Assembly (NCBI GenBank): GCA_040357565.1
Contig: JBDODJ010000004.1
Length of the DNA: 64,000 bases
Source of the DNA: Cercozoa sp. M6MM
Taxonomy: Eukaryota > Protista > Endomyxa: Ascetosporea
Direction: 5' to 3' (one strand)
Under the pieces are notes generated by a model. It was not told the DNA's origin, searched no databases, and was given only the letters and a program-made list of their open reading frames with translations. The translations under genes and the position numbers were made by a program. Below, piece after piece: positions 36,464 to 40,403 of the stretch; the first letter of the stretch is position 1, and each line of letters opens with the position of its first letter.

Positions 36464-39074
36464 TTAGTGAAACACGCGGTAGTTCTCGGGCACGATAAAG
36501 TCACTCAAACGCATCCACTGCTCCGACAAAATGTCCGGGTCGCTGCGCAAAAACAAACGACGGTGGTAGGGTATTAAGTACGGTAGTCTAGAGGAGTGAG
36601 ACTACCCCTCGCGCTTTATGACACGCGGCACATGCGAAAACTGAAGTGCGGCAGGGAGTTCCACAACTTGCAGGCCATTCTGAGGCAACAAATGAGATTG
36701 CAAAAGCAAAGAGACCGAGTTAAAGAGGCAAAAGTAAATACCTTTCGCCGTGTGTGCAGCACACTGTGCTGAGTTAGCTGAGTCACCACTTGCTGCACCT
36801 GATTCTCGGGCAGCGCCTGCACTGATCACAAGTTGAACAGAAAGACAAAGTTGTCCCCAAGTTTACCTGCAGTGTGGTGTGCTTCGACACGTACTTCATG
36901 AAGGTGGTCAGCTACACAGGCAAAAAATGGGATGAGTATAACCGAGGGACCAACGGGGTAACAGGGCGGTAATACGTTGCGCAGCGTGGTGCCACGTTTG
37001 CGCTGCTGTTGTCGCAACAGCATGCACAGCACAAAGAACACGCGCCGCTCGGCCGTCGTCGCCTTGCGCAGATGTGCCTGTGCGCAAGAGGTGTGGAGTA
37101 AAACAAGGGGCGATGAAGGATTGCAGATACCTGGAAGGCAGGCGTGCGCTCTTTCTCGATGACTTGTCGCATACAGGAAGCACTGACCTGGGTGTCACCT
37201 GCTTCGTCTGCGTACACAGGTGGACGGGTGAAAGGAGGCAATGAGAGAGTAATAACAGCGTAGAGTAGTACGGGCAGCGTGCAGTGCCGATCGGCACAGT
37301 GCGAACAGTTTGCGCACGTCGGTGCTCTGCTTTACCACGGTGCGGCATGCCAGCACTAGGGCACGCCGGTCGAAGAAGCGGTCCAGTGCCTCTCTGTACA
37401 CACACGGCCCATGTTACCCAACACACAAGTACACACACTAGAGACACATACGGCTGGCCAAAGACGTCGGCGAAGCGGTTCTGCGTGATTTCCAGCAAGT
37501 GTCGTGGCATGTACGGCATGAAGGCCAGCGACTGCGTGCGCAACTCGGCCGCGTCAAAGGCACTCACGTACCTGCACACCGCACAGGAGGTGACAAGGGA
37601 CACCCAGGTTGGGGGAGGGTAAAAAGACTACCGATCGAGCAGGTCGAGTGTGTTGGCGATGGCTACAAGAGCGAGTCGCGAATGTACCGTGTGCGACAAC
37701 ATGTCACGCAGCGCGTCCTTCTGCGCCAGGCCGTCCACTGTGCAAGAGGTACTACAGGGGCAACAAACGGCAACACAAAGAGAGGTTACCTTCGTCCAAA
37801 AGTAAAATAATCATCGGCTGGTCACGTCTCCTCTTGCCTGTATCGACAGGTGTCAAGGGTAGAAGGAATGGAGGAGGGAGAAGTACCCTTGCCCGTGGTT
37901 AGAGCAGCGACACGTCGGAGTTTCTCCTCGGCGCCAGTTACCGATACCTAGGATTCAACAGGGTAAGCGAAAGCGAATTAACGGGAGGGGGGGGGGGAAG
38001 CAGGCACCTTCGCATGACCCAACTCTTGTAGAATCGACTGTGCCAATCGTGCGCCTGACGAAAATCTACAGATTTCTTAGATTACAGCAAGACGGCAAGG
38101 GAAAAGAAATCAAGAAAGAGGGTACTCCATGGCATTGCGTCGCACAACGACAGGTCGGAGCGACCACTCGCGCTGCTCGAGTTCGCGCAGGGCGCCGTTC
38201 AAAGCGGCAGTTTTACCGGCGCCGGGCTTGCCAGCAACATAGAGCACCTCGCCGCTTCGCTCTTCCACCACACGTCTCAGAAAAGCCATGATCTGAAGGG
38301 CCAAGGTAATGAGGTAAGAGGTATGAATAGGGGGTACGAATGGGTACGAATAGGCTGGGGCAAGGGGTACCTGCTGACATTCGTCCTGCCGACACGGCAG
38401 CGGCCACGGCGCCTCGCGGATGTCGAAACTGTTTAGTGCCTTGGGGAGAGGATAAAGGGTAAATGGTGAAAGGGGTAAAGAGGTAAAGAGGTAAAGGTAC
38501 CCGTTGCATGTCATCGAGCTCTGGAGGCGACTCCGGCGGCTGCTCGAACTCGTCGTCACTGGGTGCGACGGTCGGCACTTCGCTCACGTCAGGCGACGAC
38601 ATTGTTGTGCGCCTGACCACGTGATCACACACAGTTTGATTGGAGCTTTTCTCCACTGAGGTCCGACTGATACACATTGTGTACCTCCGCTTGCCACTGG
38701 CAGCAGTGATCGCACGCGACAGGCGCCACTCCGCAACACCACATCCCCCCAGCACTGGGATAAAGATTAAGAGGGTAAGAATGCAAGGGTGAAATTGATA
38801 CAAGGACACAGGGAACAAAGACACCTTTCTTTCGACGAGCGTCGTCGTCCTTTAGTGCAGCGAGGTCTTCACCTAACCACAACAGTGTTTACTGATTCAA
38901 TCGAAACATTGAAGGTACATGTGTGCACGCCGCAACTATTTAGTCGTTCGACCGTCTTCTTTCCAATTCCGGGTAGGTCAGTTAACCTGGAAGAGTACTG
39001 CGTATGTTTCTCTAACCGTCAGAAATACACGCTGCGACATACAATTGTGCGGCACTTTTTCGACGCCGTGACAT
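36464..39074 (-). CDS. CDC6: CDC6/ORC1-family AAA+ replication initiator (CDC6-like) with N-terminal HhH domain
   Basis: LPCRQDE, LYVAGKPGAGKT (Walker A), ILLLDEVDGL (Walker B), LVAIANTLDLLDR, LAFMPY, DVRKLFALCRSA. Confidence 0.85.
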
Positions 39075-39296
39075 AATAACTAGAGGTCTCACTGCGTGCA
39101 CGTGTGGTGATCAGCCAGATTCACGGCGTTTGAGTGGCTCTACGCGGAAATGCACAGCATTACTGTACCAAATTCTGTCTTTTAGTTTTTGCCATGGTAC
39201 GAACCTCCTGTGCCGGACAGGTGTACTGTAGCCATGGCACCACGAGGTATTACAGCAGACCAGCAGTGTGTGCAGACGGACCTACAGTACATAAGA

Positions 39297-40215
39297 ATGT
39301 CAGACTGGGGCGACGACGGTAAAATCTGCTTTCTCTGCGTTTTCCAGCTTCATTCTCAGTCGTCGTGGGGCTGTTCTAGCAGCTAAAGATGAATTTCAAT
39401 GTCAAAACTGCTTTGATCAAGTTTTTAATGCTCTGTTTTGTGCTCGTTGTAGCAATTTGATTGTCTTGAATGCGTCCTTATAAATTGTTCAGGCGGAAAC
39501 GAAGGATGGGGTGATGAGAACGCTGGTGGCGACGAAAACTGGTGTGGTGCTTTTTAGTTTGTGTTGCTGCCCCAACGATGGATAGGTGTATTTGACAGGG
39601 GCAACGAGGGAGCTGGCGATGACTGGTAGACACGGCATAGGAAGGCGGTAGTGACGACTATCTATGCCGGATGCTTTATGTAGGGAGAATGCCGGCGAGG
39701 TCGGCTGGGAAGAAGGCGGCGGTGAGTGGGACGAGCAAGCACAGTCTGAGAAACCAATGGAGCAGGAGGTACTGTGTGTTTCCTATACTCTGCTACCTGT
39801 GTCTACATCGTCATGCTTGCATTAGGCATCACCGCGTATTCAGATCGATAACTTGTTTTACGAGGTACGTGTGACTGATCCCAGTGATTGATATCGTTGA
39901 AACAGTCGGCCGATCTCTGACTCTGTGTGTAGGGCAGCGACTTGGCGCGTGACGAACCAGAAGCCGCGTTGGAGCGTTTGCTCGAGTGCGTGCGCCTTGA
40001 GGTAGCTTCTGAGTCAGCTGACTCTCTTCTGCCCCTTTTACCCCCCCCCCCCCCCCCGTAGGAAGAACACCTGGGCAACGAGATTCTGATGAGATTCGAT
40101 GCGCTTGAGCGCATCGTCGTGCTGTACCTGCGGCTGCGCCGGTTGCCGCTCATGCGCGAGGCGCTGCAGAAACTCCTGTCGCTGGCCGAGCGCGTTACGC
40201 CCAACTCGCGCAACA

Positions 40216-40257
<42 letters not shown>

Positions 40258-40357
40258 NNNNNNNNNNNNNNNNNNNNNNNNNNNNNNNNNNNNNNNNNNN
40301 NNNNNNNNNNNNNNNNNNNNNNNNNNNNNNNNNNNNNNNNNNNNNNNNNNNNNNNNN

Positions 40358-40403
<46 letters not shown>

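What the first reader, a model, noticed from the sequence alone, without database searches (positions are those of the whole stretch)
38685..39074. CDC6 fused to an N-terminal RadA/Rad51-N-like helix-hairpin-helix domain
Seen: four short exons splice in frame to MSRRRKSAAQLLTDLPGIGKKTVERLNSCGVHTCEDLAALKDDDARRKKVLGGCGVAEWRLSRAITAASG. This continues in frame through an acidic SP-containing linker into the CDC6 AAA+ domain. The LPGIGxxTxxRL..G..T..DL pattern is the HhH_5/RadA N-domain signature. Established: eukaryotic Cdc6 N-termini are normally disordered CDK-site regions. Inference: an extra non-specific DNA-binding domain on the initiator, possibly compensating for a reduced ORC.
Basis: partly seen in the sequence, partly recalled or inferred. 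Interest (0 to 1): 0.7.

Follow-up and report, generated by a model that had tools for sequence, protein, structure and literature searches.

The report
Amoeba Cdc6 fused to HhH domain
In a marine amoeba, one open reading frame joins a small helix-hairpin-helix domain to the front of a Cdc6/Orc1-family replication ATPase; the extra domain likely lets the protein grip DNA without regard to sequence, an add-on seen in none of the relatives checked.

Summary
Nineteen GT-AG exons (39074-36464, minus strand) give a 510-aa frame identical to an NCBI gene model (P0001, named Cercozoa sp. M6MM, a rhizarian amoeba). Residues 8-70 are a helix-hairpin-helix domain: alone they pass Pfam cut-offs for HHH_5, IMS_HHH_1 and DUF4332, and fold as five helices nearest the Rad51/RadA N-domain; by sequence the DinB polymerase thumb scores best, so the donor is unresolved. 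The joint to the ATPase stays in frame whether intron 4 is spliced or kept, leaving a separate HhH gene no stop codon. The ATPase keeps Walker A/B and both sensors and leans to Cdc6 over Orc1, but the tree does not settle it. None of 149 relatives scanned, three rhizarian Cdc6 among them, carries the domain. Likely role: ATP-independent, non-specific DNA tether, as other lineages get from disordered tails, AT-hooks, PHD or BAH. 'Compensates for reduced ORC' could not be tested and has no support: other Rhizaria keep ORC. No RNA reads, no second species, no binding data. New variant of a known kind; moderate interest.

The parts
39043..39074 (-). Exon 1: start codon, basic tip (residues 1-7, four K/R, possible nuclear localisation signal, inferred) and start of the first HhH helix
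38919..38986 (-). Exon 2: first HhH motif; hairpin P16-G17-I18-G19-K20-K21 at 38973-38956, helix 20-28
38825..38872 (-). Exon 3: connector helix (34-42) and start of helix 44-53
38685..38754 (-). Exon 4: second, degenerate HhH (hairpin G53-C54-G55-V56 at 38746-38735, helix 58-74 with R60 and R63), then a K/R run
   Evidence: second-HhH reading inferred from the G-hydrophobic pattern described in PMC1964548
38613..38684 (-). Intron 4, 72 nt: strong donor, weak acceptor, in frame and stop-free; retention gives a 534-aa fused protein
38501..38612 (-). Exon 5: acidic, predicted disordered linker (77-110) with S79-P and S101-P; internal ATG at 38602 (M77), a possible start of a short form
37131..38439 (-). 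Exons 6-14: Orc1/Cdc6-type AAA+ domain and lid (about residues 111-383); Walker A at 38232-38209, Walker B D243-E244, sensor 1 N273, sensor 2 R347
36464..37077 (-). Exons 15-19: predicted winged-helix domain (about 387-500) and stop codon; too diverged for Pfam Cdc6_C
39075..39296 (.). 222-nt gap between this ATG and the first ATG of a divergent plus-strand gene; likely shared promoter region (inferred)

Best explanation
One 19-exon open reading frame encodes a divergent Orc1/Cdc6-family ATPase, likely Cdc6, whose N-terminus is a predicted two-motif helix-hairpin-helix domain that likely binds the DNA backbone without sequence preference and would tether the protein to chromatin before ATP-dependent assembly with ORC. 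Shown by sequence and tools: the open frame, the HhH profile hits, the ATPase motifs, absence of the domain from the 149 relatives scanned. Predicted: the five-helix fold, the flexible acidic linker, the winged helix. Inferred: a single fused mRNA as the main product; DNA binding through the G17-I18-G19 hairpin and the basic residues K20, K21, R25, R60, R63; a tethering role equivalent to the basic disordered tails, AT-hooks, PHD or BAH modules that other lineages attach to ORC subunits; control through the two SP sites. The domain looks like a lineage-specific gain by exon shuffling from some HhH-bearing DNA enzyme, old enough to be split by three ordinary introns.
For: Frame and splice sites; same model at NCBI, where annotation was trained on RNA reads according to PMC11069148 (passages), though support for this gene is not stated. 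Every fate of intron 4 within the gene's intron size range keeps the fusion; a stop-free, in-frame run from exon 4 to the ATG at 38602 has a chance of about 0.09-0.16 on random background, and a separate gene would lack a stop. The divergent neighbour starts 222 nt upstream, near the 162-bp median intergenic distance reported in PMC13746701, so exon 1 sits where a gene's 5' end is expected. Three Pfam HhH-type families above cut-off. Single-sequence AlphaFold model pLDDT 81.5, five helices; best structural match yeast Rad51 N-domain, Z 8.6, rmsd 2.5, 66 residues; Foldseek ranks 1-10 all Rad51/RadA; Atlas model TM 0.65-0.72 to RadA-N clusters. G55 and R63 have the +8 spacing of Rad51 G65/K73, reported to contact dsDNA (PMC1964548 passages; correspondence inferred from spacing). 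Tethering precedent: PMC11077064 passages, PMC7058166 passages. Cdc6 lean.
Against: No RNA evidence could be examined and the exon-5 acceptor is weak, so a short mRNA starting near M77 may coexist or dominate. One genome only: residues 1-75 found no relative but itself among 172 candidates of 280-893 aa and none among 28 shorter ones, so no conservation test of the fusion. The structural scores are modest: Foldseek E 0.15-0.57, and Z 8.6 for a helical bundle is in the range the tool calls ambiguous; SAM, NusA-AR and RNA-polymerase alpha-CTD domains score Z 6-7, and several of these bind proteins. The domain's net charge is small (10 K/R vs 8 D/E in 8-70). In the full-length model helix 58-74 drops under pLDDT 50 (no aligned relatives there). 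An Arg at the RadA K27 position did not restore binding in the archaeal protein, and this protein likely has Arg there (R25). Cdc6 vs Orc1 unresolved by trees; Foldseek ranks Orc1 chains 1-4 ahead of Cdc6.
Confidence: 0.55

Rival explanations
1. The fusion is real but the five-helix domain is a protein-interaction module (SAM-like or NusA-AR-like) that recruits a partner or oligomerises the ATPase, and binds DNA weakly or not at all.
For: SAM domains, NusA-AR2 and alpha-CTD fill much of the structural list at Z 5-7; a NusA-type C-terminal repeat was 1 of 4 genome loci hit (family name from my reading of the sequence); near-neutral core charge.
Against: The first hairpin is a clean PGIGKKT, and sequence hits are DNA-acting enzymes: Pol IV, Rev1, RadA, Pol X, Topo V; 4 of 5 loci fetched are DinB-like polymerases.
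Confidence: 0.17
2. The protein is this amoeba's Orc1, or a single Orc1/Cdc6 doing both jobs, and the HhH domain stands in for Orc1's BAH and basic disordered region.
For: It falls between the two clades in both trees; joining it to an Orc1 subclade is not rejected (p-AU 0.58); it has Orc1-type residues at P125, C126, L241, A270, T274; best library hits and Foldseek hits include Orc1. Chromatin add-ons are typical of Orc1.
Against: Cdc6 profile scores higher (217.9 vs 199.7; 20 size-matched Orc1 subsamples 189-200) and the same test placed 76 of 76 left-out scorings correctly; column log-odds +35 to +74 toward Cdc6 in 10 of 10 subsamples, against at least +100 for Cdc6 rows and at most -53 for Orc1 rows; the Orc1 arginine finger (R in 101 of 102 Orc1 rows) is E289 here; the Orc1 clade excludes it at SH-aLRT 98.
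Confidence: 0.2
3. The working Cdc6 is mostly made from the ATG at 38602; exons 1-4 belong to a minor long form or an overlapping small HhH gene, and the gene model merges them.
For: Intron 4 is atypical: T content 0.24 against 0.29-0.48 in the other 17, acceptor ranked 22 of 37; the ATG at 38602 has A at -3; an AG at 38650 would give a free 94-aa HhH protein.
Against: That alternative needs a 34-nt intron, shorter than all 18 here (46-78 nt); no stop and no AATAAA/ATTAAA between exon 4 and the ATG; 82 nt would have to hold a 3' end and a promoter.
Confidence: 0.1
4. It is an extra, diverged paralog moved out of licensing, for instance into repair or fork recovery, where the HhH domain reads distorted DNA.
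For: Very long branch (2.2-2.8 changes per column) and no grouping with rhizarian Cdc6 in the free trees; loss of the second box-VII arginine and the leucine after it (R in 32 of 43, L in 43 of 43 Cdc6 rows), a region that contacts Orc2/Orc3 in fly Cdc6 (PMC7450096 passages).
Against: Walker A, Walker B and both sensors are invariant-type, the lid and winged helix are predicted with confidence, and grouping with the rhizarian-containing Cdc6 subclade gave the best likelihood found (+7.6, p-AU 0.68).
Confidence: 0.08

Closest known systems
Eukaryotic Cdc6 (human CDC6, PDB 8rwv/8s0e; Orc1/Cdc6 family TIGR02928)
   Same: AAA+ core, lid and predicted winged helix; best PDB sequence hit 87.4 bits; Walker A/B, sensor 1, sensor 2 kept.
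   Different: Folded HhH domain plus short acidic linker in place of a long basic disordered tail; no full CDK consensus site (human-like P0110 has 7 in its tail); second box-VII arginine lost; no Pfam lid or Cdc6_C hit.
Rad51/RadA/Dmc1 N-terminal (HhH)2 domain (Pfam HHH_5, PF14520)
   Same: Five-helix fold (Z 8.6 to 3lda), G-hydrophobic pattern in two hairpins, N-terminal position ahead of an ATPase, HHH_5 above cut-off on the isolated domain.
   Different: The ATPase behind it is initiator-clade AAA+, not RecA-fold; about five extra residues between the two motifs (inferred from spacing); sequence profile of RadA matches only residues 9-43 at E 1e-3.
Y-family polymerase thumb (DinB/Pol IV, Pol iota, Rev1; Pfam IMS_HHH_1)
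   Same: Best sequence match: 31.4 bits, NCBIfam Pol IV 12-66 at E 3.6e-7, 11 identical residues in a row with an L001 DinB-like protein.
   Different: Lower structural scores (Z 5.7-5.9); no palm, fingers or little-finger domain here.
Chromatin-tethering add-ons on ORC subunits: metazoan Orc1 disordered region, S. pombe Orc4 AT-hooks, plant Orc1 PHD, Orc1 BAH
   Same: An N-terminal appendage on an ORC/Cdc6 AAA+ subunit, gained in one lineage (PMC11077064, PMC7058166; passages). BAH, PHD, MBD and chromo domains were seen on Orc1-clade relatives.
   Different: The module here is HhH, and it likely sits on Cdc6, not on a core ORC subunit; no function tested.

Membership tests
Orc1/Cdc6 family | AAA+ with Walker A, Walker B, sensor 1, sensor 2 | tested here: met
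   G154-T161, D243-E244, N273, D345/R347 match columns invariant in 43 Cdc6 and 102 Orc1 rows; TIGR02928 E 7e-25, under its cut-off
Orc1/Cdc6 family | Lid and C-terminal winged helix | tested here: met
   Model pLDDT mostly 80-98 over 111-480; Foldseek to Orc1 and Cdc6 chains over about 400 columns, E 8e-22; Pfam lid and Cdc6_C not hit
Cdc6 orthologue | Groups with Cdc6 rather than Orc1 in a tree | tested here: inconclusive
   Long branch between the clades; neither constrained placement rejected, p-AU 0.68 and 0.58; no archaeal root used
Cdc6 orthologue | Closer to Cdc6 than Orc1 by profile and diagnostic columns | tested here: met
   217.9 vs 189-200 bits; margin 18 bits, smaller than the 43-111 bits of the six long-branch Cdc6 rows printed; log-odds
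Cdc6 orthologue | Two arginines in the box-VII helix | tested here: not met
   R280 kept, position 284 is A (R in 32 of 43 Cdc6 rows); feature from PMC7450096 passages
Cdc6 orthologue | Binds ORC-DNA and loads MCM2-7 | not testable with these tools
   No genome, no partner sequences
Orc1 orthologue | Trans-acting arginine finger (S-R-L-G region) | tested here: not met
   R in 101 of 102 Orc1 rows, E289 here; alignment in this loop is gapped
Orc1 orthologue | BAH domain (patchy in the family) | tested here: not met
   No BAH hit; BAH is patchy per PMC7058166, so weak evidence
HhH superfamily domain | G-hydrophobic-G hairpin between two helices; profile above curated cut-off | tested here: met
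   G17-I18-G19 between helices 8-13 and 20-28; HHH_5, IMS_HHH_1, DUF4332 above cut-off
Rad51/RadA N-terminal (HhH)2 domain | Two HhH motifs joined by a connector helix | tested here: met
   Predicted helices 8-13, 20-28, 34-42, 44-53, 58-74; Z 8.6 over 66 residues; prediction only
Rad51/RadA N-terminal (HhH)2 domain | Descent from Rad51/RadA rather than another HhH family | tested here: inconclusive
   Structure favours Rad51, sequence favours Pol IV thumb
Rad51/RadA N-terminal (HhH)2 domain | Binds dsDNA through a basic patch (K27, G52, K60 in RadA) | not testable with these tools
   R25, G55, R63 are plausible equivalents by spacing; binding needs an experiment

The most novel reading that the evidence does not exclude
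This is the amoeba's only Orc1/Cdc6-type subunit or its main origin-binding factor: having lost the arginine that joins it to the next ring subunit, it finds DNA through a borrowed recombinase- or polymerase-type HhH clamp, and licensing runs on a remodelled or reduced ORC.
Probability: 0.08. Interest if true: 0.75.

Novelty: new variant of a known kind. Interest (0 to 1): 0.42.

Why it matters
How initiators reach chromatin in eukaryotes without sequence-defined origins is open; PMC11077064 (passages) proposes that an accessory tether is generally needed and that unidentified solutions exist. A folded HhH domain on a Cdc6-like subunit would be one more such solution, small, soluble and easy to test by DNA binding or by swapping for the Orc1 tail. 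Its weight is limited while it is known from one genome and untested.

Tried and rejected
Whole-genome ORC1-6 inventory: no genome is held. RNA support: no RNA holder listed, so no reads were laid. Relatives of the domain with the same length class or shorter: only the protein itself (word-index search of limited reach; proteins over 893 aa not searched). Viral contigs: 0 of 72 pattern hits confirmed. Metagenome scan: 1 of 593 stretches confirmed, a DinB-like gene, scan cut at 12 of 64 parts. Genome scan: 4 of 600, cut at 16 of 64 parts. Plasmids: 6 weak hits, five on Y-family polymerases. No second HhH-like stretch in the window. 30 of the 150 library hits were looked up by name; none but P0001 was named for this organism, which says nothing about an Orc1 there. 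The careful tree did not finish; both trees are quick trees; P0002 and P0053 (double ATPase) were left out of the first, and the second used 37 chosen rows. A first exon join had boundaries off by one base and was corrected. Supplement searches for CDC6/ORC terms in PMC11069148 and PMC13746701 found nothing; gene-level annotation tables were not among the files held, and figures of PMC7058166 on domain architecture could not be seen. Contamination or mis-assembly rejected: no N between 39074 and 36464 and the HhH exons carry introns like the rest of the gene. No complex prediction was sent.

Full report
Observation. Extending the model gives 19 exons, 18 GT-AG introns of 46-78 nt and a 510-codon open frame ending at 36464. 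A search with exon 7 returned one protein among 114 candidates, P0001, an NCBI model of 510 aa named 'hypothetical protein MHM6MM_000456 [Cercozoa sp. M6MM]'; it equals my join letter for letter. Papers on that strain describe a rhizarian amoeba, now Lemnamoeba sinaloensis, with about 13 short introns per gene and a median intergenic distance of 162 bp (PMC13746701, passages), and say gene prediction was trained on RNA reads (PMC11069148, passages). That is an independent prediction of the same structure, not proof of the transcript.

One gene or two. Splice matrices from introns 5-18 rank the donors of exons 2-5 as the top 4 of 58 GT sites and the acceptors of exons 2-4 at 2-4 of 37 AG sites; the exon-1 donor (29 of 58) and exon-5 acceptor (22 of 37) score poorly. 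Intron 4 is thus the weak joint, but it is 72 nt and stop-free: spliced it gives 510 aa, retained 534 aa, both fused. Of 12 AG sites after the exon-4 donor, only the modelled one gives an intron within the gene's size range; the nearest that would free a small HhH protein needs a 34-nt intron. A stop-free in-frame run to the ATG at 38602 is expected by chance at 0.09-0.16. A plus-strand gene whose first seven exons join into an open frame starts at 39297, 222 nt from this ATG. I put the fused product at about 0.9. A short form from M77 is not excluded, and no RNA run was listed to test it.

The domain. Residues 1-76 pass the Pfam cut-offs of IMS_HHH_1 (31.4 bits), HHH_5 (28.7) and DUF4332 (26.9); within the whole protein HHH_5 is 25.7, under its cut-off of 27. 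AlphaFold on the single sequence gives five helices at mean pLDDT 81.5. The best of 48,161 chains is yeast Rad51 N-domain (Z 8.6, rmsd 2.5, 66 aligned), followed by AF1548, a RAD51 paralogue complex, p63 SAM and many SAM, NusA-AR and alpha-CTD domains at Z 5-7; the tool warns that Z under about 13 for helical bundles may show only a common arrangement. Foldseek ranks 1-10 are Rad51/RadA, none significant (E 0.15-0.57). The Atlas's own model agrees (TM 0.65-0.72 to RadA-N clusters, under its naming bar). By sequence the Pol IV thumb leads (NCBIfam E 3.6e-7 over 12-66; RadA 1.3e-3 over 9-43; PDB), and 4 of the 5 loci fetched are DinB-like. So it is an (HhH)2-type domain that looks like Rad51-N, of unresolved origin. 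PMC1964548 (passages) describes RadA-N as (HhH)2 with a G-hydrophobic pattern in both hairpins and K27, G52, K60 as DNA-binding residues; G17-I18 and G55-V56 fit the pattern, and R25, G55, R63 are likely equivalents by spacing (inferred). The same paper found K27R defective, which counts against a close functional match.

The ATPase. Best PDB hits are human CDC6 (87.4 bits) and fly Orc1 (80.4). The full model (pLDDT 82.9, pTM 0.71) shows the N-domain, a disordered stretch at 57-100, AAA+, lid and winged helix and matches Orc1 and Cdc6 chains alike, Orc1 first. From the 150 best of 1,853 library hits a tree of 148 cores split into 43 Cdc6 and 102 Orc1 rows (labels), with P0001 and two other long rows between. 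A 37-row tree placed it on the central branch, outside Orc1 at SH-aLRT 98 and outside Cdc6 at 80. AU tests rejected neither a Cdc6 nor an Orc1 subclade placement (0.68, 0.58). Profiles favour Cdc6 by 18 bits, with 76 of 76 left-out scorings correct, and column log-odds lean the same way but lie between the two groups. All catalytic motifs are kept; the Orc1 arginine finger is absent, and so is the second Cdc6 box-VII arginine. In yeast the Orc1 finger completes the Cdc6 site (PMC8881611, passages), while the Cdc6 arginines serve a non-catalytic contact with Orc2/Orc3 (PMC7450096, passages), so loss is easier to bear in Cdc6. I give Cdc6 about 0.7.

How rare. Pfam scans of all 149 listed relatives (coverage checked) found HHH_5 and IMS_HHH_1 in P0001 only at E up to 5e-5; 5 of 30 and 2 of 27 single-member families were not displayed in two of the calls. 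phmmer with the domain and a hairpin pattern search also found 0 of 149. The set includes Cdc6-clade proteins of Bigelowiella, Nonionella and Spongospora and Plasmodiophora Orc1; the three Cdc6 N-termini are basic and low in complexity. These are 149 of 1,852 hits, so the domain may exist elsewhere. Orc1-clade relatives carried BAH (27 rows), PHD, MBD and chromo domains: appending chromatin modules is common in this family. Literature: searches for Cdc6 with helix-hairpin-helix terms gave 0 papers; Cdc6 plus HhH gave 8, none on such a fusion by title and abstract start, not read further; searches added none. The library lacks most subscription papers. The scan's own notes held nothing on this genome or sequence; one note on other DNA describes a prokaryotic ORC/Cdc6-like ATPase with a C-terminal HhH-type domain (unchecked).

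Mechanism. Most likely the HhH domain holds the DNA backbone without ATP or sequence preference, on a flexible acidic linker of about 35 residues, raising the ATPase's residence on chromatin so that it can close the ORC ring and help load MCM2-7. This mirrors the two-step tether model for Orc1 tails (PMC11077064, passages). That HhH hairpins bind the backbone non-specifically is established knowledge; that this one does is inferred. The linker has two SP sites and no full CDK consensus, so cell-cycle control is a guess. The reduced-ORC idea could not be tested; Bigelowiella, Plasmodiophora and Reticulomyxa each have CDC6, ORC1 and three or four of ORC2-5 (supplement rows of PMC7058166), which gives it a low prior.

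Verdict. A real, apparently undescribed domain architecture in one amoeba: a new variant of a known kind, interest 0.42. It would rise with a second species, RNA proof and binding data, or with a missing ORC.

Noticed in passing
window 36170 to about 33800, minus strand: Intron-rich ABC-F gene directly downstream; four of five exon-containing frames hit bacterial EttA/ChvD profiles first or among the first three. A bacterial-type translation throttle in an amoeba nucleus may be organellar or transferred.
   Followed up: partly
window 39297 to about 42600, plus strand: Divergent gene whose first exons give an acidic N-terminus with repeated W-G-D/E motifs. It resembles COP9 signalosome subunit 2 from recall only; Pfam and PDB searches on single frames found nothing.
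   Followed up: partly
window 38126-37452, minus strand (residues 280-292): The box-VII helix lacks both the Orc1 arginine finger and the second Cdc6 arginine-leucine pair, while other ATPase motifs are intact; the ring contact on that side may have changed.
   Followed up: partly
window 40220-40400: Run of N flanked by AC/GT repeats inside an intron of the plus-strand gene, in line with the repeat-rich genome described in PMC13746701.
   Followed up: no
P0106, P0010, and an Atlas cluster: Orc1/Cdc6-family proteins with a chromo domain (P0106) or PHD plus MBD plus BAH (P0010); an Atlas cluster of 278 mostly chlorophyte members is named for an MBD.
   Followed up: no
P0002: A nematode protein named Orc1 with two tandem ATPase copies; possibly a merged gene model.
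   Followed up: no
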